The translations under genes and the position numbers were made by a program. A stretch of 64,000 nt of DNA from Candidatus Methylomirabilia bacterium (lineage in GTDB: Bacteria; Methylomirabilota; Methylomirabilia; Rokubacteriales; CSP1-6): positions 11,409 to 75,408 of the forward strand of contig JBGQEL010000012.1 of NCBI GenBank assembly GCA_041496385.1, written 5' to 3'. Below the pieces are notes generated by a model. The model was not told where the DNA came from. It ran no database searches and worked only from the letters and a program-made list of their open reading frames with translations. Within the stretch, counting starts at the first letter, position 1. Each line of letters begins with the position of its first letter. Of the stretch, positions 31,440 through 57,776 are shown piece by piece.

Positions 31440-31477
31440 GGGCGGCGGCGCCTCCGCCGTAGAATAGGAGCGCCGGG

Positions 31478-32878: not shown

Positions 32879-32885
32879 TCGGCTG

Positions 32886-34052: not shown

Positions 34053-34086
34053 GCGCGCGCGCCGCGCGCATTCAGCGGAGGCCGCG

Positions 34087-35343: not shown

Positions 35344-35364
35344 GCCGGCGGAAAGGGAAGCGCG

Positions 35365-35949: not shown

Positions 35950-35962
35950 TGCCGGCGCGCCG

Positions 35963-36748: not shown

Positions 36749-36764
36749 CCCCTCGGGGAGGCTC

Positions 36765-38297
36765 GTGCGCTACGGATTCGTGATCGACCAGCGACGCTGC
36801 ATCGGCTGCCACGCGTGCACCGTCGCGTGCAAGGAAGAGAACCAGGTGCCGCTCGGCGCGTTCCGCACCTGGGTGAAGTACGTGGAGCGCGGGAGCTTTC
36901 CGCACACGCGGCGCTACTTCTCGGTCCTGCGCTGCAACCACTGCGACGCGGCGCCCTGCGTGACCATCTGCCCTACGGTCGCGCTCTACCGGCGGCCCGA
37001 CGGCATCGTGGACTTCGACGGCGAGCGCTGCATCGGCTGCAAGGCGTGCATGCAGGCGTGCCCCTACGACGCGCTCTACATCGACCCCAACACGCAGACC
37101 GCGGCCAAGTGCCACTACTGCGCCCACCGCATCGAGGTCGGGCTCGAGCCCGCGTGCGTGGTCGTCTGCCCGGAGCAGGCGATCATCGCGGGCGACCTCG
37201 ACGATCCTGCCTCGCGCATTGCCCAGCTCGTCGGGCGAGAGCAGGTGCAGGTGCGGAAGGCCGAGCAGGGGACGCGGCCCAAGGTCTTCTATCTCGGCGC
37301 CGATGCGGGCGCGCTGGTCCCGGCCCTCCAGGCGCCGGCGGAGAGTTACCTCTGGGCCCAGCGGCCCCAGGCCGAGGTGGATCTCGTGAGGATGGTCGTC
37401 GAGGCCGAGGCGGAGGCCGGCGACCCCGCCGGCGGTGTCACGCGGACGGTATACGACGTTCCCCACGCGCCGTTCCCGTGGGGGTGGAAGGTCGCCGCCT
37501 ACCTCTGGACCAAGTCGCTCGCGGGCGGCGCGCTCCTCGTCGGCGCGCTCGGCGTGGTCTCGGGCGGGGAGCCGACGGGCTTCCTGCTGGGCCTGGCCGC
37601 GCCCACCCTGGCGCTGCTCTTCCTGGCGGCGACGACGGCGCTCCTCGTCACCGATCTGAAGCGGCCGGAGCGCTTCCTTTATATCCTGTTCAAGCCCAAC
37701 GTCCGGTCGTGGCTGGTCTGGGGGACGTGGATCCTCCTCGCCTACGGCGCGGTCGCCGGGCTCTGGCTCCTCGCCGCGCTCGCGGGCAACGCCGCGCTCG
37801 TCCGGCTCCTGGCGTTGCCCGCCTTCGTCCTGGCCGCGGCGACGGCGGGCTACAGCGCGTTCCTCTTCGGCCAGGCCGAGGGCCGCGACTTCTGGCAAAG
37901 CCCGCTGCTGCTGCCCCAGCTCCTGGTCGGGGCTGCGGCCGCGGGCGCCGCCGAGCTCCTGCTCGTCGCGTTCGTCTGGCGCGTGGACCTGACGAGCCTC
38001 TGGGCGCTCAGCGTCATCATGGTCTGCGCACTCGGCCTGCAGGCGGTGATCCTCTTCGCCGAGCTCCTCGTCGCCCACGCCAGCGTGGACGCCGCGCGCG
38101 CGGCCCGGCTCATCACGCGCGGCCCCTGGCGGACGCCGTTCTGGGGCGGCGTCGTCGCGGCGGGCACTCTCCTCCCGATCATTCTCGTCTGGCCCAACCC
38201 CTACTCGGCGGCCCTCGGCGCTCTGCTGGTGCTGGTCGGCCTCTGGATCTACGAGGACGTGTGGGTGAAGGCGGGGCAGGCGATCCCGCTCTCGTGA
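36765..38297 (+). CDS. 4Fe-4S ferredoxin subunit fused to NrfD/PsrC-like membrane anchor
   Basis: 510 aa; N-terminal half with four Cys clusters (CIGCHACTVAC...CNHCDAAPC...CIGCKACMQACP...CHYCAHR) like PsrB/NrfC/SoeB; C-terminal half ~8 TM helices like NrfD/PsrC/SoeC. Confidence 0.75.
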   Translation: MRYGFVIDQRRCIGCHACTVACKEENQVPLGAFRTWVKYVERGSFPHTRRYFSVLRCNHCDAAPCVTICPTVALYRRPDGIVDFDGERCIGCKACMQACPYDALYIDPNTQTAAKCHYCAHRIEVGLEPACVVVCPEQAIIAGDLDDPASRIAQLVGREQVQVRKAEQGTRPKVFYLGADAGALVPALQAPAESYLWAQRPQAEVDLVRMVVEAEAEAGDPAGGVTRTVYDVPHAPFPWGWKVAAYLWTKSLAGGALLVGALGVVSGGEPTGFLLGLAAPTLALLFLAATTALLVTDLKRPERFLYILFKPNVRSWLVWGTWILLAYGAVAGLWLLAALAGNAALVRLLALPAFVLAAATAGYSAFLFGQAEGRDFWQSPLLLPQLLVGAAAAGAAELLLVAFVWRVDLTSLWALSVIMVCALGLQAVILFAELLVAHASVDAARAARLITRGPWRTPFWGGVVAAGTLLPIILVWPNPYSAALGALLVLVGLWIYEDVWVKAGQAIPLS

Positions 38298-38304
38298 GGC
38301 GCCC

Positions 38305-41133
38305 ATGAATCCGCGATCGCCCGAGCCGCTCCACCCGGCCGCCCGGGAGCTGGCCCCACCCGCGGGAGGCCTCGCGAGCTACCCGCCCGTCGAGCGCTGG
38401 GAGGATTGGGAGGAGTTCGATCCCGTCGCCTGGCCACGCAAGGTCAAGCGCCGCTACGCGCTGATCCCCACCATCTGCTTCAACTGCGAGGCCGCCTGCG
38501 GTCTGCTCGCGTACGTCGACCGGGAAACGCTCCGCATCCAGAAATTCGAGGGCAATCCCGCGCACCCGGGGAGCCGCGGGCGGAACTGCGCCAAGGGGCC
38601 GGCGACGCTCAACCAGGTGAACGACGCCGAGCGGATCCGCTATCCGCTGCGCCGGGTGGGCAAGCGCGGCGACGGGCGGTGGGAGCGCGTCACGTGGGAC
38701 GAGGCGCTCGACGACATCGCGGCGCGGATCAGGAAGGCCCTCGTCGAGGGCCGCCAGAAGGAGATCATGTACCACCTCGGGCGGCCGGGCCACGAGCTGG
38801 TCTACCTCCAGCGCGTGTTCCACGCCTGGGGCATCGACGGCCACAACAGCCACACCAACGTCTGTTCCGCGAGCGCGCGCGCGGGCTACGCCTTCTGGCA
38901 CGGCATGGACCGGCCCTCGCCCGATCACGCCAACGCGCGCTTCATCCTGCTCCTGTCCTCGCACCTGGAGACGGGCCACTACTTCAACCCCCACGCGCAG
39001 CGCATCATGGAGGCCAAGGCGCGCGGCGCCCAGGTCTGCGTGATCGACTCGCGCCTCTCCAACACCGCCTCGATGGCCGACTGGTGGCTCGCGCCGTGGC
39101 CGGGCTCGGAGTCGGCGCTGCTCCTCGCGATGGCGAGCGTCCTGATCCGCGAGCGGCTCTACGACCGCGAGTTCGTGCGCCGCTGGATCAACTGGGACGA
39201 GTACCTGCGCGAGGAGCGTCCCGACCTGCCGGTGACCTTCGAGGCGTTCGAGGCCGCGCTCGCCGCCCTCTACGCGCGCTACACGCCGGAGTTCGCCGCG
39301 CGCGAGAGCGGCGTGGACCCGAGCGCCATCGTCGAGGTGGCGCGCGCCGTGGGCCGCGCCGGCGGCGCGCTCGCGACCCACATCTGGCGCAACACGGCGG
39401 CGGGCAACCTGGGCGGCTGGCAGGTGGCGCGCGCGCTCGAGCTGCTCGTGGTCCTGATGGGCGCCGTGGGGACGCCCGGCGGCACCGCGCCCAGCGCCTG
39501 GAACAAGGCGATTCCCGCGCCGCCCCTGATGCCGCCGCCCGCGAAGGTGTGGAGCGAGCTCCTGATGCCGCGCGAGTACCCGCTCGCCTTCTTCGAGATG
39601 AGCTTCCTGCTGCCGCACTTCCTGAAGGAGGGCCGCGGCAAGCTCGCGATGTACTTCACCCGCGTCTACAACCCCGTCTGGACCAATCCCGACGGGATGT
39701 CGTGGATCGAGATGCTGACCGACGAGGCGAAGATCGAACGACACGCATGTCTCACACCGATATGGAGTGAAACGGCGTGGTTCGCCGATTTCGTGCTGCC
39801 GATGGGCCACGCCTCCGAGCGCCACGACCTCATGTCGCAGGAGACGCACGCGGCGCGCTGGATCGGGTTCCGCCAGCCCGTGCTGCGCGTGCTGCTCGAG
39901 CGGCAGGGACGGACCTTCGACCTGACCTGGCAGGCCCACGAGGCCGCCGGCCTGGGGCAGGTGTGGGAGGAGGACGAGTTCTGGATCGAGCTCTCCTGGC
40001 GCATCGATCCCGACGGCGCGCTCGGGATCCGCAAGTACTTCGAGTCGCCCTACCGTCCGGGCGAGAAGCTCCGCATCGAGGAGTTCTACCGCTGGATCTT
40101 CGAGCACAGCGTGCCCGGACTGCCCGAGGCGGCGGCGCGCGAGGGCCTCACGCCGCTCGCCTTCATGCGCAAGTACGGCGCCTTCCTCATCGAGGACCAG
40201 GTCTATCGCACCCACGAGCAGGCGCCGCCCGCGAAGGACCTCGAGGGCGCCGGCGTCGATCCCCTGACGAAGATCATCGCCAAAGGCGGCCAAGCCGTGG
40301 GCGTCGAGGTGGACGGGCGCGCGTGCCTGGGGTTCCCGACGCCGTCGCGCAAGCTCGAATTCTTTTCCAAGACGCTCAAGGACTGGCGGTGGCCCGAGCA
40401 GGCCGTGCCCGGCTACATCCGAAGCCACGTCCACTGGTCGAACATCGACCGCGGCCGCGGCGAGATGGTGCTGCTGCCGACGTTCCGCCTGCCGACGCTG
40501 ATCCACACCCGGTCGGGCAACGCGAAGTGGCTCTACGAGATCTCGCACACCAATCCGCTCTGGCTGCACCCCGAGGACGCCGCGCGCCTCGCGGTCGCCA
40601 CGGGCGATCTGCTCAAGGTCGCGACCGCGATCGGCCACTTCGTGGACAAGGTCTGGGTGACCGAGGCGATCCGTCCCGGCGTCGTCGCCTGCTCGCACCA
40701 CCTGGGCCGCTGGCGACTCCACGAGGACGCGGGCGGCGAGCGCTGGTCGACCGCGCTCGTGGACCTCACGCAGCTCCAGCCGGGCCGCTGGCTCATGCGG
40801 CAGGTCCACGGCGTCCGGCCGTTCGCGAGCGACGATCCCGACTCCGGACGGATCTGGTGGGAGGAGGCGGGCGTCCACCAGAACCTCACGTTCCCCGTCC
40901 AGCCCGATCCCGTGAGCGGCCAGCACTGCTGGCACCAGAAGGTGACCGTGACGAAGGCGGGACCCGACGAGCGCTACGGGGACATCTTCGTGGACACGAA
41001 CAAGTCCTTCGAGGTGTACCGCCAGTGGCTCGCCCTGGCCCGCCCCGCGCCCGGTCCCGGCCGGCTGCGCCGGCCGCTCTGGCTGCCGCGCGCCTTCAAG
41101 CCCGACGCCTCCGCCTATCGCATCGATCCCTGA
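38305..41133 (+). CDS. molybdopterin oxidoreductase catalytic subunit lacking Tat signal (SoeA-like sulfite dehydrogenase candidate)
   Basis: 942 aa; N-terminal FeS Cys motif (CFNCEAACG...C), Mo-bisPGD domain order, no RR motif, which implies a cytoplasm-facing enzyme like SoeABC; 8 nt after the FeS-NrfD gene. Confidence 0.7.
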   Translation: MNPRSPEPLHPAARELAPPAGGLASYPPVERWEDWEEFDPVAWPRKVKRRYALIPTICFNCEAACGLLAYVDRETLRIQKFEGNPAHPGSRGRNCAKGPATLNQVNDAERIRYPLRRVGKRGDGRWERVTWDEALDDIAARIRKALVEGRQKEIMYHLGRPGHELVYLQRVFHAWGIDGHNSHTNVCSASARAGYAFWHGMDRPSPDHANARFILLLSSHLETGHYFNPHAQRIMEAKARGAQVCVIDSRLSNTASMADWWLAPWPGSESALLLAMASVLIRERLYDREFVRRWINWDEYLREERPDLPVTFEAFEAALAALYARYTPEFAARESGVDPSAIVEVARAVGRAGGALATHIWRNTAAGNLGGWQVARALELLVVLMGAVGTPGGTAPSAWNKAIPAPPLMPPPAKVWSELLMPREYPLAFFEMSFLLPHFLKEGRGKLAMYFTRVYNPVWTNPDGMSWIEMLTDEAKIERHACLTPIWSETAWFADFVLPMGHASERHDLMSQETHAARWIGFRQPVLRVLLERQGRTFDLTWQAHEAAGLGQVWEEDEFWIELSWRIDPDGALGIRKYFESPYRPGEKLRIEEFYRWIFEHSVPGLPEAAAREGLTPLAFMRKYGAFLIEDQVYRTHEQAPPAKDLEGAGVDPLTKIIAKGGQAVGVEVDGRACLGFPTPSRKLEFFSKTLKDWRWPEQAVPGYIRSHVHWSNIDRGRGEMVLLPTFRLPTLIHTRSGNAKWLYEISHTNPLWLHPEDAARLAVATGDLLKVATAIGHFVDKVWVTEAIRPGVVACSHHLGRWRLHEDAGGERWSTALVDLTQLQPGRWLMRQVHGVRPFASDDPDSGRIWWEEAGVHQNLTFPVQPDPVSGQHCWHQKVTVTKAGPDERYGDIFVDTNKSFEVYRQWLALARPAPGPGRLRRPLWLPRAFKPDASAYRIDP

Positions 41134-41178
41134 TGATCGCTCGATTCGCCGTGGCGAACGGCGTATATTGACTCCGCG

Positions 41179-41670
41179 ATGACGGACGCATTCGACCTCA
41201 CGCGACGGACGCTGCTGGGAACGCTCGGCGTCCTCGGCGTGGCGGCGCTGGCGGGCGGCCTCGCGGCGCCCGAGGGCGCCGGCGCGCAGCAGCTCGGGCT
41301 GCAGGAGACGATCGACGAGGCCCTGAAGCGTGTCTTCGGCGGGCGGCCCATTAAGGACGGCTCGGGCGCGATCAAGCTCGATATCCCGGCGATCGCCGAG
41401 AACGGCGCGCTCGTGCAGACGGGCGTGACCGTCGAGTCGCCGATGACGCCGGCGAACCACGTCAAGCACATCTGGATCGTCGCCGACAAGAACCGGATCC
41501 CCGTCGTGTTCGTCGCGACGCTCACGCCGGAGGCGGGCCGCGCCTCCGTCGGCGCCACGATCCGGCTCGGCGAGACGGGTGACGTTCGCGCCATCGTGGA
41601 GCAGAGCGACGGCACGCTGCTCCAGGTGAAGCGCGAGGTCAAGGTCACCGTCGGCGGCTGCGGAGGCTGA
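41179..41670 (+). CDS. soxY: sulfur carrier protein SoxY
   Basis: 163 aa; Tat signal (TRRTLLGTLG); C-terminal GGCGG swinging-arm motif. Confidence 0.85.
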   Translation: MTDAFDLTRRTLLGTLGVLGVAALAGGLAAPEGAGAQQLGLQETIDEALKRVFGGRPIKDGSGAIKLDIPAIAENGALVQTGVTVESPMTPANHVKHIWIVADKNRIPVVFVATLTPEAGRASVGATIRLGETGDVRAIVEQSDGTLLQVKREVKVTVGGCGG

Positions 41671-41676
41671 GCGCGC

Positions 41677-42009
41677 GTGTCCGACATCGGCAAGGTGCGC
41701 ATCCGGATTCCCTCGAGCATCAAGCCCGGTGACGTCGTCCAGGCGCGCACGCTCGTCATCCACCCCATGGAGCGCGTCGAGCGCGACCGGCAGGGCCGCG
41801 TCATCCAGAAGAACTACAGCTACATCACCCGGGTGGTCGTGACCTACCTCGGCAAGACGGTCGTCACCTTCGACACGACGCAGGGCGTGAGCGAGAACCC
41901 GTTCTTCTCGTTCACGTTCCGCGCGACGGATCCGGGCCAGCTGAAGGTCCAGTTCCTGGACACGACGGGTGGCCGGTACGAGGGCACGACCGACATCACG
42001 TTCTCCTGA
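41677..42009 (+). CDS. soxZ: SoxZ
   Basis: 110 aa immediately after soxY; SoxZ-sized beta-sandwich protein. Confidence 0.8.
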   Translation: MSDIGKVRIRIPSSIKPGDVVQARTLVIHPMERVERDRQGRVIQKNYSYITRVVVTYLGKTVVTFDTTQGVSENPFFSFTFRATDPGQLKVQFLDTTGGRYEGTTDITFS

Positions 42010-42028
42010 CGGAGCGCGCCGGGCGTCC

Positions 42029-43324
42029 ATGCACGCGCCGCGCGCTCTGCCCTCGATCCTGCTGGCCGCGCTCGCTCTCGGCTGCGCCGCCGCCACCGAG
42101 CGTCCCGCCGACGGCGTTCCGGCCTGGACCACGCGCGCGATCCCCGAGGCGCGCGGCGACGTCCGCGTGGCGCCGGATGGCACGCGCGTCGCGATCCGGT
42201 ACCGCGGCTGGACGACGCGCGACTTCGGCGCCTTCCGCACCTACGCCTACGACGACACGCGCCCCGAGCCGCGCGTCGCGCGCGCGGCGGCGCCGTCGGG
42301 CGTGACGGGCGACGCCGCGCGCGGGCGGCGCCTCTTCCTCGACCGCGCGAAGGGCCCGTGCACCGGCTGCCACCTGGTGCCGGGTGACGACGTCTGGCCC
42401 GCCGGCAACGTCGGCCCCGATCTCTCGACGCTCGGCGCTCGCGACCTCGCCGACGCGTACCTCTACCAGCAGCTCTTCGACCCGCGCGTGACCTTCCCGA
42501 AGACCTCGATGCCGCCGTGGGGCGCCGCCGGCGCCTTCACGCCCGCCGAGCTCGCGGACCTCGTCGCGTACCTCCAGACGCTCCGCGGGCCCGTGCCGCC
42601 CGAGCGCGATCGCGACCGCGACCCCGCCACGCGGGGCAAGCCCCCGGGCTTCGGCGACAACCTCGATCCCACGAACAATCCGGCCGTGCTGCTGGCCGAG
42701 GACGCCGAGGCGCGCTGGGCGTCGCCGGGCCCGGCGGGAAAAGCGTGCGCGGGCTGTCACGAGGGAGGGCCCGCGCGGGCGATGAAGGGCGTCGCCACGC
42801 GCTACCCGAGGCACGTCCCGGCGTGGCGCCGCGTGATGAGCCTCGAGGACTTCCTCGAGGTCCACGGCCCCGGGACGACCGGGCGCGCCTACCCGCTCGA
42901 GTCCGCCGAGAACCTCACGATGACGATCCTCGTCAAGATGGCGTCCAACGGCCTGCCGCAGGCACTCGACACGACCAGCCCCGAGGCGCGGGCGGCCATC
43001 CGCCGGGGCCGGGCGACCTTCGAGCGTCGCGTCGGCGAGCGCAACCACGCGTGCGCCGACTGTCACACGCCCGAGCACGGCGCCGGACGGTTTCTCGGCG
43101 GCCGTCTGCTGGCCGACGTGAGCGCGGGGCTCACGCGCCACTTCCCGACGTGGCGCACGAGCCAGGGCGAGGTCTGGGACCTGCGCAAGCGCTTCCAGTG
43201 GTGCATGACGCCGCTCGGGGCGAACATGCTCGCGGCCGACGCGATCGAGTACGCGGAGCTGGAGCTCTACCTGGCGACGTTCGACGTCGGCAAGCCGCTG
43301 AGCGTCCCCGGGATCCGCCACTGA
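42029..43324 (+). CDS. SoxXA-like trihaem cytochrome c (apparent SoxX-SoxA fusion)
   Basis: ORF 41969..43324; signal/lipobox-like start at ATG 42029 (MHAPRALPSILLAALALGCAA). Three CxxCH motifs (CTGCH, CAGCH, CADCH), consistent with a monohaem SoxX-like N-terminal part plus a dihaem SoxA-like part. Confidence 0.6.
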   Translation: MHAPRALPSILLAALALGCAAATERPADGVPAWTTRAIPEARGDVRVAPDGTRVAIRYRGWTTRDFGAFRTYAYDDTRPEPRVARAAAPSGVTGDAARGRRLFLDRAKGPCTGCHLVPGDDVWPAGNVGPDLSTLGARDLADAYLYQQLFDPRVTFPKTSMPPWGAAGAFTPAELADLVAYLQTLRGPVPPERDRDRDPATRGKPPGFGDNLDPTNNPAVLLAEDAEARWASPGPAGKACAGCHEGGPARAMKGVATRYPRHVPAWRRVMSLEDFLEVHGPGTTGRAYPLESAENLTMTILVKMASNGLPQALDTTSPEARAAIRRGRATFERRVGERNHACADCHTPEHGAGRFLGGRLLADVSAGLTRHFPTWRTSQGEVWDLRKRFQWCMTPLGANMLAADAIEYAELELYLATFDVGKPLSVPGIRH

Positions 43325-45003
43325 GCCTCACCCGGCGCGACCTGCTGACGGTCCTGGCCGTCGCGGCGGCGGCGGGGCTCGCGCCGCGCCGGCTCGAGGC
43401 GGCCGACGGTCCCGAACGGCTCCTCGAGGTCGAGCCGCTCGGCAACGTGACGCTGCTCCACCTCACGGATTCGCACGGGACGCTCCGGCCCGTGCACTAC
43501 CGCGAGCCCGACACGCTCGTCGGCGTCGGCGCCGAGCGCGGGAAGGCGCCGTTCCTGACGGGCGCCGAGTTCCTGCGCGCGTATCACCTGGCGCCCGGCT
43601 CCGCCCTCGCCCACGCCTGCACGCATCTCGACTTCCCGGCGCTGGCGGCGCGCTACGGGCGGATGGGCGGCTATGCCCACCTCGCGACGCTCGCCGGCCG
43701 CGTGCGCGCCGAGCGGGCGGGGAAGACGCTGCTCCTCGACGGCGGCGACACCTGCCAGGGCTCGGCGACCGCGCTCTGGAGCCGCGGCGAGGACATGATC
43801 CGCGCCGCGAACCAGCTCGGTGTCGAGGTGATGACGCCGCACTGGGAGTTCGTCTACGGGCTGGACCGGGTGCGCGAGCTCTTCGGCGAGGGCGAGCGGC
43901 GCGGCCTCTTCGCGGGCGACTTCGTCGCGCAGAACGTCACGCGCACGGGCTGGGGTGACCGCGTCTTCGCGCCGTACACGATCCGCGAGGCCGGCGGCGT
44001 GCGCATCGGGGTGATCGGCCAGGCGTTCCCGTACGTCCCGGTGTCGCATCCGCGACGCCTGGTGCCCGACCTGACGTTCGGCATCCAGGAGGGCCCGCTC
44101 CAGGCCCTCGTGGGGGAGGTGCGCGACGCGCGGCGCGTGGAGCTGGTCGTGCTCCTGTCGCACAACGGCATCGCCGTGGACCTGAAGCTCGCCGCCCGCG
44201 TCCAGGGGCTCGACGTCGTGCTGGGCGGCCACACCCACGACGCGCTCCCGGAGCCCATCGTCGTCGGGCGCACGCTCGTCGTGAACTCGGGCTCGCACGG
44301 CAAGTTCCTCTCGCGCCTGGACCTCGACGTGCGCCAGGGCCGCGTCGCGGGCTGGCGCTACCGGCTCCTCCCCGTGCTCGCCCGGTCCATCCCCGAGGAT
44401 CCCGCGATGGCACGGCTCGTCGCCGAGCTGCGCCGGCCGTACGAGGCGACGCTCGCCGAGCCGCTCGCGGTCTCCGAGTCGCTGCTCTACCGCCGCGGCA
44501 ACTTCAACGGCACCTTCGACGAGCTGATCCTCGACGCGCTCCTCCAGCGCTTCGACGCCGAGGTTGCCTTCTCACCGGGGTTCCGCTGGGGCCCGACGAT
44601 CGTGCCCGGGCAGACGATCACGCGCGAGGACGTCTACGCCCACACGGCGCTCACGTACCCGAACACCTGGGCGCGCGCGATGACGGGCCGCGAGATCCTG
44701 GCGCTCATGGAGGACGTCGCCGACAACCTCTACCACCCCGATCCGTACTACCGGCAGGGCGGCGACATGCTGCGCGTCGGCGGCCTCACGTACGCGATCG
44801 ACCCGCAGGCGGCGATGGGCCGGCGGATCCGCGACGTCCGCGTCGGCGGCCGGACGCTCGAGGCGGAGCGGCAATACAAGGCCGCGGGCTGGGCGAGCCT
44901 CGGCGAGGCCGCGGGGCCGCCCGCGTGGGACGTCGTTGCTGCCCACCTGCGGGCGCTCGGGCGCGTCCGGCTCGACCCGCGGCCGCGCGTCCGCGTCCTG
45001 TGA
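43321..45003 (+). CDS. soxB: thiosulfohydrolase SoxB (apparent CTG start overlapping upstream TGA)
   Basis: In-frame part of ORF 42517..45003; Tat signal LSLTRRDLLTVLAVAAAAGLAP; 5'-nucleotidase/metallophosphatase motifs (HLTDSHG, GGHTH). No ATG/GTG/TTG between GTG 43198/43201 and the Tat motif; alternative start GTG 43198. Confidence 0.8.
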   Translation: MSLTRRDLLTVLAVAAAAGLAPRRLEAADGPERLLEVEPLGNVTLLHLTDSHGTLRPVHYREPDTLVGVGAERGKAPFLTGAEFLRAYHLAPGSALAHACTHLDFPALAARYGRMGGYAHLATLAGRVRAERAGKTLLLDGGDTCQGSATALWSRGEDMIRAANQLGVEVMTPHWEFVYGLDRVRELFGEGERRGLFAGDFVAQNVTRTGWGDRVFAPYTIREAGGVRIGVIGQAFPYVPVSHPRRLVPDLTFGIQEGPLQALVGEVRDARRVELVVLLSHNGIAVDLKLAARVQGLDVVLGGHTHDALPEPIVVGRTLVVNSGSHGKFLSRLDLDVRQGRVAGWRYRLLPVLARSIPEDPAMARLVAELRRPYEATLAEPLAVSESLLYRRGNFNGTFDELILDALLQRFDAEVAFSPGFRWGPTIVPGQTITREDVYAHTALTYPNTWARAMTGREILALMEDVADNLYHPDPYYRQGGDMLRVGGLTYAIDPQAAMGRRIRDVRVGGRTLEAERQYKAAGWASLGEAAGPPAWDVVAAHLRALGRVRLDPRPRVRVL

Positions 45004-46128: not shown

Positions 46129-46293
46129 ATGCCGACGACATGCGAGTGCGGGATGACGCTGGAGCTGCCGTCGAGCCGGACCGGCTGCCCGGAGTGCGGG
46201 ACCGCCGGCTGCCGGAGCTGCTCGATCGAGATGGAGGCCACCCACTACTGCCGCTGGTGCGCGACGTCGCTCGCGCTCGGCCAGCCGGCCTGA
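46129..46293 (+). CDS. small Cys-rich zinc-ribbon protein (54 aa)
   Basis: Not in ORF track (<60 codons). ATG 46129 preceded by AGGAGGA at ~-10; MPTTCECGMTLELPSSRTGCPECGTAGCRSCSIEMEATHYCRWCATSLALGQPA; four C-x(1-2)-C pairs; followed by a second GAGGAGGA RBS for the next gene. Confidence 0.5.
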   Translation: MPTTCECGMTLELPSSRTGCPECGTAGCRSCSIEMEATHYCRWCATSLALGQPA

Positions 46294-47280: not shown

Positions 47281-47313
47281 CCCGCGGGGCCGGCTCCGTC
47301 TCTGAGCTAAGAT

Positions 47314-47342
47314 AGGGCCACTGTGACGTCGACAGTGGCCCT
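47314..47342 (+). terminator. perfect 11-bp inverted repeat hairpin (agggccactgt-N7-acagtggccct) followed by U-rich CUAUUGCUUUCC
   Basis: Lies 34 nt after the ICL-family stop and spans the GTG start (47323) of the redoxin gene. Could be a terminator and/or start-codon-sequestering structure. Confidence 0.3.
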
Positions 47343-47868
47343 ATTGCTTTCCTGTCTCGCCCTCGTCGTCGCCGCGCCCGCCGCGTGCGCCGGCGGCGAG
47401 CGCCTCGACGATCTCGCGATCGACCTCCTGCTGGTCCCGCTCGTGCGCGACCCGGCGCCGTCGCTGGCGCTCGAGGCGATCGACGGGACCCGGGTCGCGC
47501 TCCACGAGCTGCGCGGCCGGCCGGTCCTCCTCTATTTCTGGGAGTCGACGTGACCGTACTGCGCGAGGGAGTTGCCCTCGACGATGGAGCGGGTCGGACG
47601 CGACTTCGGTCCGCGCGGGCTCGCGATCCTCGCGATCAATCTCGGCGAGGGCCGGGAGATCGTCGCGCGCTATGCGCGCGGGAAGGGGCTCACGTCGACG
47701 GTGCTGCTGGATCTGACCGGCGTCGCCGGCCGGGCCTATCGGGTGACCGCCACGCCGACGGTCTTCGTCGTCGGTCGCGACGGGCGGCTCGTCGCCAAGG
47801 CGCTCGGCACGATGGAGTGGACCGGGCCCGCGGGTCGGGCCTTCCTCGAGGCGCTCGTCGAGCGGTGA
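47323..47868 (+). CDS. selenocysteine-containing TlpA/redoxin-like thiol:disulfide oxidoreductase (UxxC), in-frame TGA at 47551-47553
   Basis: Track ORFs 47323..47553 and 47572..47868 are in the same frame, separated only by TGA. Read-through gives ...GRPVLLYFWEST-U-PYCARELP...LAILAINLGEG...LLDLTG..AGRAYRVTATPTVFVVGRDGRLV: a thioredoxin-fold redoxin with TGA exactly at the first Cys of the WCxxC motif. Signal/lipobox-like N-terminus. Confidence 0.7.
47554..47583 (+). promoter_or_regulatory. candidate bacterial SECIS hairpin downstream of the in-frame UGA
   Basis: Stem cgaggg/ccctcg (47564-47569 / 47575-47580) with 5-nt apical loop AGUUG containing G-U; stem begins 10 nt after UGA; extendable with a bulged A (c62-g83, g63-c82). 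Confidence 0.45.
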
Positions 47869-51701: not shown

Positions 51702-51815
51702 CGCTAACGGCGCGGCGCGTTAGAGTGATCCGTCATACAGCGCGCCATCCCGCGCGCACGAGTGCGCGCACGGGTGGAACGCGAGACGATATGTGAGAAT
51801 CGGGAGGAGGCGCTG

Positions 51816-54073
51816 ATGTTCGCCGAGCAGATCCGGTCCCTGTACGCCTCGATGCCGGAACGTCTCGCTCGCGCGCGCAAGGCGTTCGGCCGCCCGCTCA
51901 CGCTCACCGAGAAGATCCTCGCCGCGCACTGCTGGGACTTCGACCGCCAGACGTGGGAGCGGGGCAAGGCGATCCTCCGCCTGCGGGTCGATCGCGTGGG
52001 CCTGCAGGACGTGACCGGGCAGATGGCGTTGCTGCAGTTCATGCACTCGGGGCGGCCGCGCGTGGCGGTGCCCTCGACGCTCCACTGCGATCACCTGATC
52101 CGCGCCGAGAGCGGCAGCGCGGACGATCTCGCCCGCGCCATCAAGGAGAACGAGGAGGTCTACGACTTCCTCCGCTCCACGTGCCGCAAGTACGGCATCG
52201 GCTTCTGGCGGCCGGGCGCGGGGATCATCCACCAGGTCGTGCTCGAGAACTACGCCTTCCCCGGCGGGCTCATGATCGGCGCGGATTCGCACACGCCGAA
52301 CGGCGCGGGCCTCGGCATGCTTGCGATCGGCGTCGGCGGCGCCGACTGCGGCGAGGTGATGGCGGGCCTGCCGTGGGAGGTCCTGCACCCGAAGCTGATC
52401 GGCGTGCGCCTCACCGGCAAGCTCTCGGGCTGGACCGCGGCCAAGGACGTCATCACGTACCTCTGCACGCGCCTCACGGTGAAGGGCGGCACCAACAAGA
52501 TCGTCGAGTACTTCGGGCCCGGCGCCGAGTCGATCAGCGCGACGGGCAAGGGGACCATCGGCAACATGGGCGCCGAGCTGGGCGCGACGACGTCGGTCTT
52601 TCCGTTCGACTCGCGCATGGCGGCGTACCTCCGCGCGACCGAGCGCGCCGACGTCGCGGCGCTCGCCGAGGAGTTCCGTGAGCACCTGACGCCCGACGGG
52701 GAGGTCCTGGCGAGCCCGAAGACCTTCTACGACGAGCTGGTCGAGATCAACCTGGACGAGCTGGAGCCGCACGTGGTCGGTCCACACTCGCCCGACCGCG
52801 GGCGCCCGATCAGCAAGCTGGCGGCCGAGGTGAAGGAGAACGGCTGGCCCGCGAAGATCACCAACGGGCTCATCGGCTCGTGCACGAACTCCTCCTACGA
52901 GGACATGCGGCGGGCCGCCCACGTGGCGACGCAGGGCATCAAGGCCGGGCTCCGCGCCAAGATCCCGTTCCTGGTCACGCCGGGCTCCGAGCGGATCTAC
53001 CAGACGATCAAGCGTGACGGGCTCATCGAGACCTTCCAGAAGATCGGCGGCACGGTGCTCGCCAACGCGTGCGGGCCCTGCATCGGCCAGTGGAAGCGGA
53101 GCGACGTCAAGGCGAGCGAGGCCAACACGATCGTCTCGTCGTTCAACCGGAACTTCCCCGGCCGCAACGACGGCAGCGCCGCGACGCTCTCGTTCCTGAC
53201 GAGCCCCGAGCTGGTGACGGCGCTCGCCTTCGCCGGCACGCTCGAGTTCGACCCCGTGCACGGCACGCTGACGACGCCCGACGGCAAGCCCTTCCGCTTC
53301 ACGCCGCCCGAGGCCGAGGAGCTTCCGCGCGACGGCTTCGCCGGCGGCGCGGAGGGCTACGAGCCGCCCGCGGCCGACGGCGCGTCCGTCCAGGTCATCG
53401 TGCGGCCCGACAGCGAACGCCTCCAGCTCCTCCAGCCGTTTCCGAAGTGGGACGGCAAGGACTTCGTCGATCTGCCCATCCTGGTCAAGACCAAGGGCAA
53501 GACGACGACGGATCACATCTCGCCCGCCGGCCCCTGGCTCCGCTTCCGCGGCCACATCGACAAGATCAGCGACAACATGTTCCTCGGCGCGACGAACGCG
53601 TTCACCGGCGAGGCGGGCAAGGGCGTCAACCCGCTCACCGGCGAGGCCGGCCAGCCGTTCACCAAGATCGCGCGCGACCTCAAGGCCAGGGGCGTCCGCT
53701 GGATCGTCGTCGGCGACGAGAACTACGGCGAGGGGTCGAGCCGCGAGCACGCCGCCATGTCGCCGCGCTATCTCGGCTGCGTGGTCGTGCTGGTCAAGAG
53801 CTTCGCGCGCATCCACGAGACGAATCTCAAAAAGCAGGGCATCCTGCCGCTGACGTTCAAGGACCCGCGCGACTACGACCGCTTCGACGCGCCGGATCGC
53901 GTGAGCGTGACCGGCCTCGCGGCGCTCGCGCCCGGCCGGCCCGTCCGCGTGACGATCCGTAAGCCCGACGGGCGGACGGAGACCATCGAGGCGCTCCACA
54001 GCCTCACCGACGAGCACATCGCGTGGTTCAAGGCCGGGTCGGCGCTCAACGCGGCCCAGGGGGACAGGACGTA

Positions 54074-54074
<1 letters not shown>
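51816..54074 (+). CDS. acnA: aconitate hydratase (monomeric, ~750 aa type)
   Basis: From ATG 51816 (GGGAGGAGG RBS) within ORF 51762..54074. Fe-S ligand cysteines ([17 protein letters not shown]) and SR substrate motif. Confidence 0.9.
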
Positions 54075-56312
<2,238 letters not shown>

Positions 56313-56342
56313 AACCCCACCCGCCCGGCGTGGCTGGAGGCG

Positions 56343-56897
56343 ATGATGGCGAAGCGAGCGAGAGCCAGGAAGCGAGTGAAGCCCGCGCGGCGTGGGGCGC
56401 GCCCGGCGCGCCGCGCGCGCGTCGCCCCGGTGCCCGCCGGCTACCACACGGTGACGCCGTATCTCACCGTCGACGACGCCGCCCGGGCGCTCGACTTCTA
56501 CGCGCGCGCCTTCGGCGCGCGCGAGACCGAGCGCATGCCAGGACCCGGCGGCCGGATCATGCACGCCGAGCTCCGGATCGGGAACTCGATCATCATGCTC
56601 AGCGACGAGTTTCCGGGGATGAGCACGTGCCGGTCGCCGAAGTCGCTGGGCGGGACGACGGTCCAGATCTTTCTCTACGTGCCCGACGTGGACGCCGCGT
56701 TCAAGCGCGCGGTGGACGCCGGCTGCCGGGTCACGATGCCGCTCGCCGACATGTTCTGGGGCGACCGCTACGGCAAGCTCGAGGATCCGTTCGGCACCCA
56801 GTGGGGTCTCGCGACCCACCGGGAAGACGTCACGCCGCAGCAGATCAAGACGCGCGGCGCGGCGGCGATGGCCGCCATGACCGCGCCGCAGGCGTAG
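56343..56897 (+). CDS. VOC (glyoxalase/bleomycin-resistance) family protein with Arg/Lys-rich N-terminal tail
   Basis: 184 aa; PhnB/YdhH-like VOC fold pattern (TPYLTVDDAARALDFYARAFGA). Confidence 0.65.
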   Translation: MMAKRARARKRVKPARRGARPARRARVAPVPAGYHTVTPYLTVDDAARALDFYARAFGARETERMPGPGGRIMHAELRIGNSIIMLSDEFPGMSTCRSPKSLGGTTVQIFLYVPDVDAAFKRAVDAGCRVTMPLADMFWGDRYGKLEDPFGTQWGLATHREDVTPQQIKTRGAAAMAAMTAPQA

Positions 56898-56909
56898 CCG
56901 GGGGCGGCG

Positions 56910-57752
56910 ATGCGCGACATCCACTCGAGCGCCATCAGCGACGCGGTCAAGAAGCTCTGCATCGACGCCAACCTCGAGCTGGAGCCCGACATGCTGCGCG
57001 CGTTCGACCGCGCGCTCCGGACCGAGCGCTCGCCGGCCGGCAAGCAGGTGCTCCAGACCCTGAAGGACAACGCCGAGATGGCGCGGACGCGGCGCATCCC
57101 GTACTGCCAGGACACGGGCTTCGTCGTCTGCTTCGTCGAGCTGGGCCAGGACGTCCACATCACGGGTGGCGCCCTCGACGAGGCCATCAACCAGGGCGTG
57201 CGCCAGGGATACACGGAGGGCTACCTCCGCGCCTCCATCGTGCGCTCGCCCTTCGACCGGGTGAACACCGGCGACAACACGCCGGCGGTGATCCACGTGG
57301 ACATCGTCCCCGGCGCGACAATGAAGATCATGGTCATGGCCAAGGGCGGTGGCTGCGAGAACCGGTCGAAGTACAAGATGCTGACGCCCGCCGAGGGGAC
57401 GCAGGGCGTGAAAGACTGGATCCTCGAGTGCGTGCGCACGGCCGGGCCCGACGCGTGCCCGCCGCTCATCCTGGGCGTCGGCGTCGGCGGGACCTTCGAG
57501 AAGTCGGCGATCCTGTCGAAGAAGGCGCTCTTCCGCGAGCTGGGCTCGCCGCATCCCGACGCCGTCATCGACGTCCTCGAGAAGGAGCTGCTGGACCAGG
57601 CGAACCGCCTCGGGATCGGGCCGCAGGGCTACGGCGGCGACACGACGGCGTTCGGCATCCACATCCTCACGTACCCGTGCCACATCACCTCGCTGCCGGT
57701 CGCGGTCACGATCGAGTGCCACGCCCACCGGCACAAAGAGGTCACGCTGTGA
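56910..57752 (+). CDS. class I (Fe-S) fumarate hydratase, alpha subunit (N-terminal domain)
   Basis: 280 aa; Fe-S hydro-lyase alpha region (CQDTGFVVCFVELGQD). Confidence 0.85.
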   Translation: MRDIHSSAISDAVKKLCIDANLELEPDMLRAFDRALRTERSPAGKQVLQTLKDNAEMARTRRIPYCQDTGFVVCFVELGQDVHITGGALDEAINQGVRQGYTEGYLRASIVRSPFDRVNTGDNTPAVIHVDIVPGATMKIMVMAKGGGCENRSKYKMLTPAEGTQGVKDWILECVRTAGPDACPPLILGVGVGGTFEKSAILSKKALFRELGSPHPDAVIDVLEKELLDQANRLGIGPQGYGGDTTAFGIHILTYPCHITSLPVAVTIECHAHRHKEVTL

Positions 57753-57776
57753 GGCGGCGCCTCACGGAGCGGGCGC

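What the first reader, a model, noticed from the sequence alone, without database searches (positions are those of the whole stretch)
47323..47868. Candidate selenoprotein: TlpA/redoxin-like oxidoreductase with in-frame UGA at the first Cys position of the CxxC motif (UxxC) and a downstream SECIS-like hairpin
Two track ORFs are in the same frame and separated only by TGA (47551-47553). Joining them gives a textbook thioredoxin-fold redoxin. It has a secretion/lipobox N-terminus, GRPVLLYFWEST-[TGA]-PYC at the active site, and conserved downstream LAINL, LLD and PTVFVV-RDG blocks. UxxC redoxins are a recurrent bacterial selenoprotein family. A 6-bp stem with 5-nt apical loop AGUUG (G-U in the loop) starts 10 nt after the UGA, the expected bSECIS position.
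Basis: partly seen in the sequence, partly recalled or inferred. Interest (0 to 1): 0.8.

Follow-up and report, generated by a model that had tools for sequence, protein, structure and literature searches.

The report
Selenocysteine redoxin gene beside Sox cluster
This is one gene for an exported thioredoxin-fold redox enzyme whose internal "stop" codon almost certainly encodes selenocysteine; public annotations split it into two ORFs, but it belongs to an already known class of bacterial selenoproteins.

Summary
Window 47323-47868 (+) is a single 181-codon reading frame with one in-frame TGA (47551-47553) at the first Cys of a CxxC motif. A 6-bp stem with a 5-nt loop follows at 47564-47580.

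The selenoprotein reading is strongly supported by comparison with relatives.
- A search pattern that did not specify the hairpin found 111 homologues (99 distinct, 32-99% protein identity) with TGA at the same codon.
- The hairpin is nearly invariant in them and is built from codons that are rare in this genome (AGG, TTG/TTA).
- It shows compensatory changes in one lineage, and it decays stepwise in Cys-type relatives.
- It meets all four published bacterial SECIS criteria.
- Two independent assemblies reproduce the TGA, and TGA is the usual stop codon in the window.

The protein is a ResA/TlpA-like, signal-peptide-bearing thiol-disulfide oxidoreductase (U-P-Y-C). It fits the known "Prx-like thiol:disulfide oxidoreductase" UxxC selenoprotein family. 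It is recurrently linked to soxYZ-soxXA-soxB genes, which suggests a SoxS/SoxW-like periplasmic role; that part is inference.

Two things fall short: selA/B/C/D could not be checked in the source genome (only literature support for the phylum), and the "lipobox" is not conserved.

Verdict: real, and a new member of a known kind.

The parts
47323..47868 (+). Complete selenoprotein coding sequence: GTG start, 181 codons including Sec77, true stop TGA at 47866-47868. It encodes a ResA/TlpA-like thiol-disulfide oxidoreductase.
   Evidence: Single frame. Pfam AhpC-TSA 5e-20 and Redoxin 3e-16 spanning the TGA. Full-length Cys homologues of 178-190 aa. Identical sequence in an independent assembly, L213.
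47323..47391 (+). Predicted Sec-type signal peptide (residues 1-23, MTSTVALLLSCLALVVAAPAACA | GG). The cleavage site is inferred, not computed with a dedicated predictor.
   Evidence: Hydrophobic core followed by an A-x-A site. Homologues have comparable n/h/c-region signal peptides without a conserved lipobox Cys.
47551..47553 (+). In-frame UGA, codon 77: the predicted selenocysteine codon, at the position of the N-terminal nucleophilic Cys of CxxC.
   Evidence: Aligns with Cys in all Cys-type homologues and with the first CxxC cysteine of ResA in PDB alignments. TGA at the same codon in 111 homologues.
47551..47562 (+). U-P-Y-C redox motif (codons 77-80).
   Evidence: In Sec-type homologues the motif is U-[P]-[YHFI]-C.
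47564..47580 (+). Bacterial SECIS core hairpin: 5' arm 47564-47569 (CGAGGG), apical loop 47570-47574 (AGUUG), 3' arm 47575-47580 (CCCUCG). There are 16 nt between the UGA and the loop. It also encodes (A)RELPS.
   Evidence: dG -9.1 kcal/mol. 99.8% of cells paired in 80 distinct sequences, with 2 of 6 pairs changed on both sides. Rare codons AGG and TTG/TTA are fixed. The hairpin decays in Cys forms. It meets the bSECIS model criteria quoted.
47311..47345 (+). 14-bp hairpin enclosing the SD-like AGGG and the GTG start codon of the gene. Possibly translational control, or a terminator/stabiliser of the upstream gene. Role unknown.
   Evidence: dG -28 kcal/mol. Conserved with compensatory changes in L072, L011, L020, L114, L041 and L127. 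Flagged as terminator-like by the simple scan.
41137..45003 (+). Associated context, not part of the gene: soxY (41137-41670), soxZ (41671-42009), soxXA-like cytochrome c (41969-43324), soxB (about 43330-45003).
   Evidence: NCBIfam SoxB 775 bits (cut-off 550), SoxY 125.2 (cut-off 125), SoxZ 72.7 (cut-off 76). Pfam SoxA-TsdA_cyt-c plus cytochrome c. Sox genes accompany the Sec-type gene in 31 of 51 related loci of at least 3 kb.

Best explanation
Window 47323-47868 is one gene for an exported ResA/TlpA-like thiol-disulfide oxidoreductase whose active site is Sec77-Pro-Tyr-Cys80.

Proposed mechanism: during translation, the 17-nt stem-loop that begins 10 nt after the UGA acts as a bacterial SECIS. 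It is bound by SelB-GTP-Sec-tRNA(Sec), so the ribosome inserts selenocysteine at UGA instead of terminating. The 181-residue precursor is exported through its N-terminal signal peptide. In the periplasm the Sec/Cys pair cycles between the selenol/thiol state and a selenenylsulfide, reducing disulfides or mixed (poly)sulfide adducts on partner proteins.

Shown here: the reading frame, the Cys/Sec correspondence, conservation of the UGA, and selection on the RNA hairpin that depends on the UGA being present.

Inferred: actual Sec insertion, since the machinery was not seen in this genome; export; and the physiological partner. From the recurrent linkage to soxYZ-soxXA-soxB, the most likely partner is the Sox sulfur-oxidation system, in a role analogous to SoxS/SoxW keeping the SoxY carrier cysteine usable. 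I put about 0.35-0.4 on that functional part alone.
For: - One frame, one TGA, and a thioredoxin-fold domain spanning it.
- Cys homologues align Cys to the TGA, as does ResA in the PDB.
- Four database 'fragments' proved to be TGA-interrupted homologues.
111 family members (99 distinct) have TGA at this codon and open frames on both sides.
- Their proteins are 32-99% identical (median 51%), with the N- and C-parts equally conserved at 50% and 52%.
- Hairpin: 99.8% of cells paired, C-G to G-C and G-C to A-U double changes, and A-U to G-U even where the residue changes from Arg to Gly.
- Synonymous freedom is suppressed only in the stem-loop codons. Arg is AGG only, although AGG is 15 of 633 Arg codons in window genes. 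Leu is TTG/TTA only, although TTG is 4 of 718 Leu codons. Pro is CCC and never CCG, while Pro at +1 uses all four codons.
- Cys-type relatives encode the same RELPS peptide with CGC/CGG, CTG/CTC and CCG. Their hairpins carry 0, 1, 2, 3 and 5 substitutions (L215, L009, L005, L216, L131).
- All four bSECIS model criteria are met.
- TGA is the normal stop of 27 of 42 window ORFs.
- The TGA is reproduced in two independent assemblies.
- Methylomirabilota are reported to be selenoprotein-rich and to carry selABCD.
- Sox linkage.
Against: - No selA, selB, selD or tRNA-Sec in the 64-kb window or in 1.35 Mb of related flanks, so Sec competence of this particular genome is unverified.
- Single-sequence folding energy is not exceptional (z=-0.70), and no Rfam family matches.
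- The double-sided compensatory changes come from one lineage (L018/L078/L101), so independent covariation events are few.
- The hairpin overlaps a conserved peptide (RELPS), so part of its conservation is protein-level.
- For the Sox role: the gene is not adjacent to soxB in this window (LysR, a small ORF and an ICL-like gene intervene). No CcdA/SoxV-type reductant supplier was seen among the ORFs I scanned with Pfam. The protein is not a sequence relative of SoxS.
Confidence: 0.88

Rival explanations
1. The UGA is recoded through the SECIS and SelB, but with cysteine rather than selenocysteine. A SelC*-type tRNA(ReC) charged with Cys would do this, so the product would be an ordinary CxxC redoxin, always or when selenium is scarce.
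For: Such tRNAs are documented to decode SECIS-directed UGA as Cys. They were found in a minority of Sec-type genomes: about 2.3% of non-UXXU Sec-type genomes and 13-17% overall in one survey (citing Vargas-Rodriguez et al. 2018). Nothing in the window distinguishes Sec from Cys insertion.
Against: No such tRNA lies in the window or related loci. That survey did not report tRNA(ReC) for Methylomirabilota. If Cys were the product, a UGC/UGU codon would serve without the costly SECIS constraint. Relatives that did switch to Cys codons let the hairpin decay, which implies that the UGA form delivers something a Cys codon does not.
Confidence: 0.04
2. Translation really stops at the TGA. The locus would then be a pseudogene, or two separate small genes (a 76-aa secreted peptide and a 94-98-aa C-terminal fragment), as current metagenome annotations show.
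For: Automated gene calls on L213/L214 and on L002-L004 list two ORFs. NCBI names the C-terminal piece of P0069 a TlpA family protein.
Against: A thioredoxin fold split inside its CxxC motif cannot fold or function. TGA sits at exactly the same codon in 99 distinct sequences down to 32% identity, with both halves equally conserved and in frame. Pseudogenes would accumulate varied stops and frameshifts, and only one such case (L053) was seen. Nucleotide-level selection on the hairpin has no explanation under this model.
Confidence: 0.01
3. The TGA is read through by a mechanism unrelated to Sec: near-cognate tRNA-Trp/Cys leakiness, or reassignment of UGA. The hairpin would be conserved only because it encodes RELPS, or because it acts as a generic read-through stimulator.
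For: Stem-loops downstream of stop codons can stimulate read-through in some systems (own knowledge). The hairpin overlaps a conserved peptide.
Against: UGA is the predominant genuine stop in the window, 27 of 42 ORFs including this gene's own stop, so it is not reassigned. Cys-type relatives keep the RELPS peptide but not the hairpin, so peptide conservation does not explain the codon choice. The position (Cys of a redox motif), the geometry and the G-U loop signature are those of bSECIS elements.
Confidence: 0.03
4. The TGA is a sequencing or assembly error for TGC/TGT.
For: It is a single-nucleotide difference from a Cys codon.
Against: The identical gene sequence, including TGA, appears in an independent assembly from another sample (L213). 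A 99.4%-identical strain variant (L214) differs at two other positions in the gene and not at the TGA or the hairpin. More than 100 homologues share the TGA.
Confidence: 0.005

Closest known systems
Prx-like thiol:disulfide oxidoreductase selenoproteins (PF00578, UxxC). First predicted by Kryukov and Gladyshev 2004; listed in Geobacter, Syntrophus, Desulfotalea and marine metagenomes (PMC13188914, PMC1794560, PMC2398784).
   Same: AhpC-TSA/Redoxin-type thioredoxin fold. Sec replaces the first Cys of CxxC. A bSECIS lies immediately downstream within the coding region. Abundant Cys homologues exist. The closest solved structure (3kcm, profile E=5e-35, deposited only as 'Thioredoxin family protein') is of the same ResA/TlpA-like type.
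   Different: This clade comes from high-GC soil and groundwater Rokubacteria/Methylomirabilota-like organisms rather than anaerobic Deltaproteobacteria. Sec is the predominant state in it, with several nested Sec-to-Cys reversions, whereas Cys-to-Sec was described as the general trend. It has a nearly invariant 17-nt SECIS and a recurrent link to sox genes. I could not align it directly with the reference accession (WP_010940744.1), so orthology to the original family members is untested.
ResA / TlpA / CcmG (DsbE) / StoA extracytoplasmic thiol-disulfide reductases
   Same: Best sequence matches in the PDB and NCBIfam: ResA 1.6e-19 in NCBIfam, profile E about 1e-31 to ResA structures, TlpA 8.5e-17. 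Same W-x-x-W/T-C-x-x-C active-site context, and an N-terminal export signal or anchor.
   Different: Scores are far below every equivalog cut-off (ResA 70.5 against 170, TlpA 30 against 230, DsbE 34 against 123), so it is not an orthologue of any of them. It has Sec instead of Cys. There is no cytochrome c maturation or Cu-chaperone gene context; the context is sox genes.
SoxS and SoxW, the periplasmic thioredoxins of the Sox system (Paracoccus pantotrophus, Rhodovulum sulfidophilum)
   Same: A periplasmic thiol-disulfide oxidoreductase encoded with sox genes. SoxS reduces false mixed disulfides on SoxYZ, and SoxW is reduced by the CcdA-like SoxV. Here the gene is linked to soxYZ, soxXA and soxB in the window and in 31 of 51 related loci.
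   Different: No detectable specific sequence relationship to SoxS: it is absent from the top 60 PDB profile hits. No soxV/ccdA or soxR was seen nearby. The active site contains Sec. The resemblance is functional and contextual only.
Minimal E. coli fdhF SECIS: a 17-nt upper stem-loop about 11 nt downstream of UGA, with G-U in the apical loop (recalled from Liu et al. 1998 and Huttenhofer et al. 1996; own knowledge, not checked here)
   Same: Same size class (17 nt), nearly the same spacing (10 nt after UGA), and G-U in the apical loop. It fits the consensus bSECIS model quoted.
   Different: Different sequence. No bulged U in the stem. No obvious conserved lower stem. The spacing of 16 nt from UGA to loop sits at the lower limit of the 16-37 nt range.
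ResA-like WAxxUGC selenoproteins (NCBIfam NF041054) / 'UGC-containing TlpA family' (cd02966)
   Same: A TlpA/ResA-like fold with Sec in the active-site region.
   Different: The motif there is U-G-C, whereas here it is U-P-Y-C. The score is 34.6 bits against a cut-off of 300, so this is a different family.

Membership tests
Bacterial selenoprotein gene (Sec-UGA plus bSECIS) | In-frame UGA at a position occupied by Cys in homologues | tested here: met
   Cys aligns to the TGA in all Cys-type relatives and in ResA.
Bacterial selenoprotein gene (Sec-UGA plus bSECIS) | UGA conserved in orthologues, with coding conservation on both sides | tested here: met
   111 members (99 distinct) at 32-99% identity. 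Median identity is 50% for the N-part and 52% for the C-part.
Bacterial selenoprotein gene (Sec-UGA plus bSECIS) | Downstream stem-loop fitting the bSECIS model: loop 3-9 nt, stem 4-16 bp, G in the first two loop positions followed by G or U, 16-37 nt from UGA to loop, MFE at most -7.5 kcal/mol | tested here: met
   Loop of 5 nt (A-G-U-U-G), stem of 6 bp, 16 nt spacing, -9.1 kcal/mol. Criteria taken from PMC13188914.
Bacterial selenoprotein gene (Sec-UGA plus bSECIS) | RNA structure under selection, conditional on the UGA | tested here: met
   99.8% paired, and 2 pairs with double-sided change. Codon entropy is 0-0.15 bits at Arg, Pro and Ser and 0.59 at Leu in the hairpin, against 0.6-1.8 elsewhere. 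AGG is used in 93 of 93 Arg codons in Sec forms against 1 of 9 in Cys forms, Fisher p=4e-11, with sequences not independent. Decay series in Cys forms.
Bacterial selenoprotein gene (Sec-UGA plus bSECIS) | selA, selB, selC (tRNA-Sec) and selD present in the same genome | not testable with these tools
   None in the window or in 1.35 Mb of related flanks. Phylum-level literature support only.
Bacterial selenoprotein gene (Sec-UGA plus bSECIS) | Selenium demonstrated in the protein | not testable with these tools
   Needs 75Se labelling or mass spectrometry.
Prx-like thiol:disulfide oxidoreductase / TlpA-ResA-like redoxin superfamily | AhpC-TSA or Redoxin domain above the Pfam threshold | tested here: met
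   PF00578 72 bits (cut-off 26) and PF08534 60 bits (cut-off 26.6).
Prx-like thiol:disulfide oxidoreductase / TlpA-ResA-like redoxin superfamily | UxxC/CxxC motif in the W-x-x-x-C-x-x-C context, aligned to the catalytic cysteines of solved members | tested here: met
   FWEST-U-PYC aligns to FWGTW-C-PHC of a ResA variant (3c71) and FWATW-C-PPC of 3kcm.
Prx-like thiol:disulfide oxidoreductase / TlpA-ResA-like redoxin superfamily | Extracytoplasmic location (signal peptide or membrane anchor) | tested here: inconclusive
   A hydrophobic N-terminus with an AxA site is conserved in type across homologues. No dedicated predictor was available. The lipobox is not conserved.
ResA, TlpA, DsbE/CcmG, StoA (specific orthologue groups) | Score above the NCBIfam curated cut-off | tested here: not met
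   ResA 70.5 against 170, StoA 49 against 210, DsbE 34 against 123, TlpA 30 against 230.
SoxS/SoxW periplasmic Sox thioredoxins | Specific sequence relationship to SoxS | tested here: not met
   No SoxS chain among the best 60 PDB profile hits, all of which have E below 1e-7.
SoxS/SoxW periplasmic Sox thioredoxins | Encoded within or next to a sox gene cluster | tested here: met
   soxY, soxZ, soxXA and soxB lie at 41137-45003, 2.3 kb upstream. soxB is immediately upstream in 15 of 58 related loci, and a Sox-cluster gene is present in 31 of 51 loci of at least 3 kb. Cys orthologues follow soxB or soxA directly.
SoxS/SoxW periplasmic Sox thioredoxins | Partner CcdA-like SoxV nearby; reduction of SoxYZ | tested here: not met
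   No DsbD/CcdA-type Pfam hit among the window ORFs scanned. The biochemical part is not testable here.
Peroxiredoxin (Prx) selenoproteins, TxxU type | Peroxidatic Cys/Sec in a PxxxTxxC/U motif | tested here: not met
   The motif here is W-E-S-T-U-P-Y-C with a resolving Cys three residues on, which is a thioredoxin-type CxxC.
ResA-like WAxxUGC selenoprotein (NF041054) | WAxxUGC motif and a score of at least 300 bits | tested here: not met
   The motif is WESTUPYC, and the score is 34.6 bits.

The most novel reading that the evidence does not exclude
The selenoprotein is a dedicated periplasmic partner of the Sox thiosulfate-oxidation system in Rokubacteria-like soil bacteria. In this reading it is a Sec-containing functional analogue of SoxS/SoxW that rescues or unloads the SoxY carrier cysteine. 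Sulfur oxidation in these abundant soil organisms would then depend on selenium supply. In this clade Sec, not Cys, would be the long-maintained state, with repeated recent Sec-to-Cys reversions that leave fossil SECIS elements.
Probability: 0.3. Interest if true: 0.55.

Novelty: new member of a known kind. Interest (0 to 1): 0.35.

Why it matters
Practically, this gene and at least a hundred relatives in soil and groundwater metagenomes are annotated as two hypothetical ORFs or as a truncated 'TlpA family protein'. The 17-nt SECIS signature `CGAGGGAGTTRCCCTCG` placed 10 nt after a TGA gives a simple rule for correcting them.

Biologically, it adds a well-supported, widespread, exported selenoprotein clade to an uncultured and abundant soil phylum, and it links that clade to Sox sulfur oxidation.

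The Sec/Cys pairs, with hairpins at graded stages of decay, are a clean natural experiment. They show that the synonymous-site constraint is imposed by the UGA, and they show Sec-to-Cys reversion in a thiol oxidoreductase family. None of this changes what is known about how Sec is inserted.

Tried and rejected
- **Single-sequence folding of 47545-47610.** The energy is not different from shuffles (z=-0.70), so I did not rely on it.
- **Rfam.** Nothing at gathering thresholds over the whole window. A permissive local search gave only spurious miRNA-type hits on the start-codon hairpin.
- **Sec machinery.** ARAGORN on the window and on all loci found no tRNA-Sec. tblastn with E. coli SelA, SelB and SelD against the window plus 1.35 Mb of fetched loci found nothing. 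This is uninformative about the genome.
- **Source look-up.** The 98-aa downstream ORF was not on record. The neighbouring amidohydrolase did identify two JGI contigs, but no longer contig or genome.
- **Other read-through genes in the window.** A GC3-based scan found only ordinary gene junctions besides 47551.
- **Lipoprotein reading of the N-terminus.** Rejected because no homologue conserves the Cys and position -3 is Pro.
- **Membership in ResA, TlpA, DsbE, StoA, SoxS or the WAxxUGC family.** Rejected on scores and motif.
- **The Methylomirabilota selenoproteome paper (Deng et al. 2026).** Not held in the library, so that claim rests on the review's summary.
- **Structure prediction.** Not run. 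Sequence matches to solved ResA-type structures (E down to 5e-35) made it unnecessary.
Full report
**Observation**

The window between 47323 and 47868 on the + strand reads as one frame of 182 codons with a single internal stop, TGA at 47551-47553, and a terminal TGA at 47866-47868. With Cys substituted for the TGA, the 181-aa product matches Pfam AhpC-TSA (E=5e-20) and Redoxin (E=3e-16) over residues 41-167, that is, across the stop.

The hairpin is real. CGAGGG occupies 47564-47569, AGUUG 47570-47574 and CCCUCG 47575-47580, starting 10 nt after the UGA. Taken alone it is unremarkable: the 66-nt region folds no better than dinucleotide shuffles (z=-0.70). The case therefore has to rest on comparison with other sequences.

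**Homologues and the Cys/Sec correspondence**

The closest database proteins are 178-190-aa TlpA-family proteins from Rokubacteria/Methylomirabilota (45-59% identity). The window itself is 71.6% G+C. These proteins carry Cys exactly where the window has TGA, for example P0007 LLYFWDSTCPYCARELPSTIEQV.

Four hits were only about 100 aa long and began at or just after the CxxC motif. Their contigs all show an upstream in-frame continuation and a TGA at the same codon.

**An unbiased collection of TGA forms**

I scanned the metagenome collection with a DNA pattern that specifies only the upstream LxYFW codons, a TGA, and the second Cys codon, and nothing downstream of it.
- After adding the window and the four loci above, 111 sequences belong to this family, 99 of them distinct over 150 nt.
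- All have open frames on both sides.
- Protein identity among them ranges from 32 to 99% (median 51%). The 45 residues before the UGA (median 50%) are as conserved as the roughly 100 after it (52%).

A pseudogene or a pair of independent genes would not behave like this. The only damaged copy seen is L053, which has a 1-nt deletion.

**The hairpin is selected as RNA, and only when the UGA is present**

In the 111 sequences the 17-nt element takes seven forms, all of them hairpins of -7.1 to -10 kcal/mol.

On 80 distinct 45-nt segments, 99.8% of pair cells are standard pairs, against 51-56% when the 3' partner is slid. Two of the six pairs show changes on both sides (C-G to G-C, G-C to A-U) in L018/L078. 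A third pair alternates A-U and G-U, including in sequences where this changes Arg to Gly. These double changes come from one lineage, so covariation alone is modest.

The stronger signal is at synonymous sites:

| Codon | In the hairpin (Sec forms) | Comparison |
|---|---|---|
| Arg | always AGG | AGG is 15 of 633 Arg codons in 12 confident window genes |
| Leu | always TTG or TTA | TTG is 4 of 718 Leu codons in the same genes |
| Pro | CCC, never CCG | the Pro codon one position after the UGA uses CCG/CCC/CCA/CCT at 66/16/8/5 |
| Ser | TCG | 90 of 92 sequences; the other two use TCC |

Codon entropy is 0-0.15 bits at the Arg, Pro and Ser codons and 0.59 at the Leu codon in the hairpin, against 0.6-1.8 bits at other conserved Pro, Arg, Leu and Gly positions of the same genes.

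Cys-type relatives encode the same S/A-R-E-L-P-S peptide with ordinary high-GC codons (CGC/CGG, CTG/CTC, CCG) and have no consistent hairpin. They form a decay series:
- L215 (P0005): TGT with the hairpin intact
- L009: 1 substitution
- L005: 2 substitutions
- L216: 3 substitutions
- L131: 5 substitutions

So the constraint disappears when the UGA does. That is what a SECIS predicts, and peptide conservation does not predict it.

**Fit to the bSECIS model**

The consensus model quoted in a 2026 review has four criteria: apical loop 3-9 nt and upper stem 4-16 bp; a G in the first two loop positions, usually followed by G or U; 16-37 nt between UGA and loop; and MFE at most -7.5 kcal/mol (PMC13188914). 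All four are met here: loop A-G-U-U-G, stem of 6 bp, 16 nt spacing and -9.1 kcal/mol. The 16-nt spacing is at the lower limit. From memory, not checked here, the minimal E. coli fdhF element is likewise a 17-nt stem-loop about 11 nt after the UGA.

**Exclusions**

- TGA is the genuine stop of 27 of 42 confident ORFs in the window, including this gene, so UGA is not reassigned.
- The same gene sequence, TGA included, occurs in an independent assembly (L213, 99.97% identical over 15 kb). A strain variant (L214, 99.4%) has two differences in the gene, neither in the TGA nor in the hairpin. This excludes sequencing error.
- Both of those annotations split the gene into 76-aa and 94-aa ORFs.

**What could not be shown**

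The window has no tRNA, no Rfam family and no SelA, SelB or SelD homologue. Neither do the 1.35 Mb of related flanks. Pfam annotation of the rest of the window found nothing Sec-related. I could not reach the rest of the source genome.

Support for Sec competence is therefore indirect. Methylomirabilota also appear among phyla with Sec-type hydrogenases, in genomes where selABCD was found in about 90% of cases allowing one missing gene.

The same paper points to a rival that sequence data cannot exclude. SelC*-type tRNA(ReC) can insert Cys at SECIS-directed UGA. It is uncommon, and it is hard to reconcile with the cost of maintaining the SECIS when a Cys codon would do.

**What the protein is**

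The best matches are extracytoplasmic thiol-disulfide reductases. With a family profile these are PDB 3kcm (E=5e-35), ResA structures (about 1e-31), TlpA (8.5e-17), and CcmG/DsbE and StoA. The UGA aligns with the first, nucleophilic cysteine of their CxxC motif.

No NCBIfam orthologue model reaches its cut-off (ResA 70.5 against 170, TlpA 30 against 230). The ResA-like WAxxUGC selenoprotein model scores 34.6 against 300. The motif is thioredoxin-type (U-P-Y-C), not peroxiredoxin-type.

The family fits the long-known 'Prx-like thiol:disulfide oxidoreductase' selenoproteins (PF00578, UxxC) catalogued in Geobacter, Syntrophus and marine metagenomes.

The N-terminus looks like a Sec-type signal peptide. 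Homologues have basic n-regions, hydrophobic cores and AxA sites, but no conserved lipobox Cys. Export is therefore likely and lipidation is not supported.

**Evolution within the family**

A neighbour-joining ordering of 92 Sec-type and 64 Cys-type sequences separates a large Cys-only clade (C-x-Y-C-R-[RK]-E-L-P-[VA]) from a 'RELPS' subfamily. That subfamily is mostly Sec-type, with at least four small Cys clades nested in it. The window groups with the WES[GT]-U sequences, next to the P0007 Cys clade.

Together with the hairpin decay series, this suggests repeated Sec-to-Cys reversions. That differs from the Cys-to-Sec trend reported for thiol oxidoreductases in 2006. The tree is rough, and the direction of change is inferred.

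**Context and likely role**

Upstream in the window lies a sulfur-oxidation cluster:
- persulfide dioxygenase-rhodanese, a YedE-like transporter, an FCSD-like flavoprotein, cytochrome c, TauE
- a TtrB/NrfD-like and a PhsA-like molybdoenzyme
- soxY (125.2 bits, cut-off 125), soxZ (72.7, cut-off 76), a soxXA-like dihaem cytochrome, and soxB (775 bits, cut-off 550)
- then a divergent LysR gene, a 54-aa Cys-rich ORF and an ICL/methylisocitrate-lyase-like gene, followed by the selenoprotein gene

In relatives the link is tighter. soxB is the immediate upstream neighbour in 15 of 58 loci with enough flank. 31 of 51 loci of at least 3 kb carry a Sox-cluster gene. The Cys orthologues P0007 and P0003 directly follow soxB and soxA.

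In Paracoccus, the periplasmic oxidoreductase SoxS keeps SoxYZ active by reducing false mixed disulfides, and SoxW is a thioredoxin reduced by the CcdA-like SoxV. By analogy, the most likely role here is a periplasmic reductase serving SoxYZ or another component of this cluster.

This is inference. The protein is not a sequence relative of SoxS, no CcdA-like gene was seen in the window, and many related loci show no sox gene within the short sequence available.

**Verdict**

The gene is a bona fide Sec-type (UxxC) ResA/TlpA-like redoxin with a conserved bSECIS. It is widespread in soil metagenomes and systematically mis-annotated as two ORFs.

It is a new member, and a well-populated new clade, of a known selenoprotein family. 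It is not a new kind of system.

Remaining uncertainty concerns the Sec machinery of this particular genome, Sec versus Cys insertion, and the physiological partner.

Noticed in passing
window 47311-47345: A 14-bp, near-perfect hairpin (GATAGGGCCACTGT-GACGTCG-ACAGTGGCCCTATT, about -28 kcal/mol) encloses the SD-like AGGG and the GTG start codon of the selenoprotein gene. It is conserved with compensatory changes in L072, L011, L020, L114, L041 and L127, where the start is ATG or GTG. It is absent in L012, L118, L074 and L080. The simple scan flags it as terminator-like. It could gate translation initiation, or terminate or stabilise the upstream ICL-like transcript.
   Followed up: partly
window 46129-46293 (+): A 54-aa Cys-rich ORF (MPTTCECGMTLELPSSRTGCPECGTAGCRSCSIEMEATHYCRWC...) lies between the divergent LysR gene and the ICL-like gene. 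A 54-aa gene is called at the same place in L006-L008 and L213. It has no Pfam hit. It looks like a zinc-ribbon-type small protein.
   Followed up: no
L215 (contig of P0005), gene 154-714: A Cys-type homologue (TGT) nested among Sec-type sequences still carries the intact 17-nt SECIS hairpin, including the rare AGG and TTG codons. This is an apparent fossil SECIS from a very recent Sec-to-Cys change.
   Followed up: partly
L016, L033, L069, L077, L083, L088, L095 (metagenome loci): A different thioredoxin-fold family (Pfam Thioredoxin_2, DsbH/DUF255 and Thioredoxin_7) has an in-frame TGA in LLLYFWTPE-U-LGC-RKMG, about 170 codons downstream, and its own hairpin (GGGTRCC...GTACCC) about 18 nt after the TGA. 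It is probably another UxxC selenoprotein family.
   Followed up: partly
L102, L119, L059 (metagenome loci): Further single examples of AhpC-TSA/Redoxin-like genes with TGA at the first Cys of CxxC (FWATW-U-GPC, FWADY-U-TTC, FWALT-U-THC) and different downstream sequence. L059 was not scanned against Pfam.
   Followed up: no
L053 (metagenome locus, match at 2573-2608, minus strand): A Sec-type family member with a 1-nt deletion inside the hairpin (GCGAGGAGTTGCCCTCC) that shifts the frame after the CxxC motif. This is either a decaying copy or a sequencing error.
   Followed up: no
window 31463-45003: A large sulfur-oxidation gene cluster: persulfide dioxygenase-rhodanese fusion, YedE/YeeE-like transporter, FCSD-like flavoprotein plus cytochrome c, TauE, a fused TtrB-like FeS/NrfD protein, a PhsA-like molybdopterin oxidoreductase, soxY, soxZ, a fused soxXA-like cytochrome (41969-43324) and soxB. 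No soxCD was seen. The same molybdoenzyme (82-88% identity) accompanies the Sec-redoxin in 12 related loci.
   Followed up: partly
window 51729-62864: A run of TCA-cycle genes lies downstream: aconitase, isocitrate dehydrogenase, malate dehydrogenase, the two subunits of class I fumarase, an SdhA/FrdA-like flavoprotein and succinyl-CoA ligase beta. The run is unrelated to the finding.
   Followed up: no
L002 (GCA_035455525.1, DATIEZ010000138.1), labelled Vicinamibacteria: A Sec-type copy sits in a MAG that NCBI labels as Vicinamibacteria (Acidobacteriota). Its neighbours (molybdoenzyme 82%, aconitase 84% identical to the window's proteins) look Rokubacteria-like. This could be a binning or taxonomy error or horizontal transfer.
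   Followed up: no
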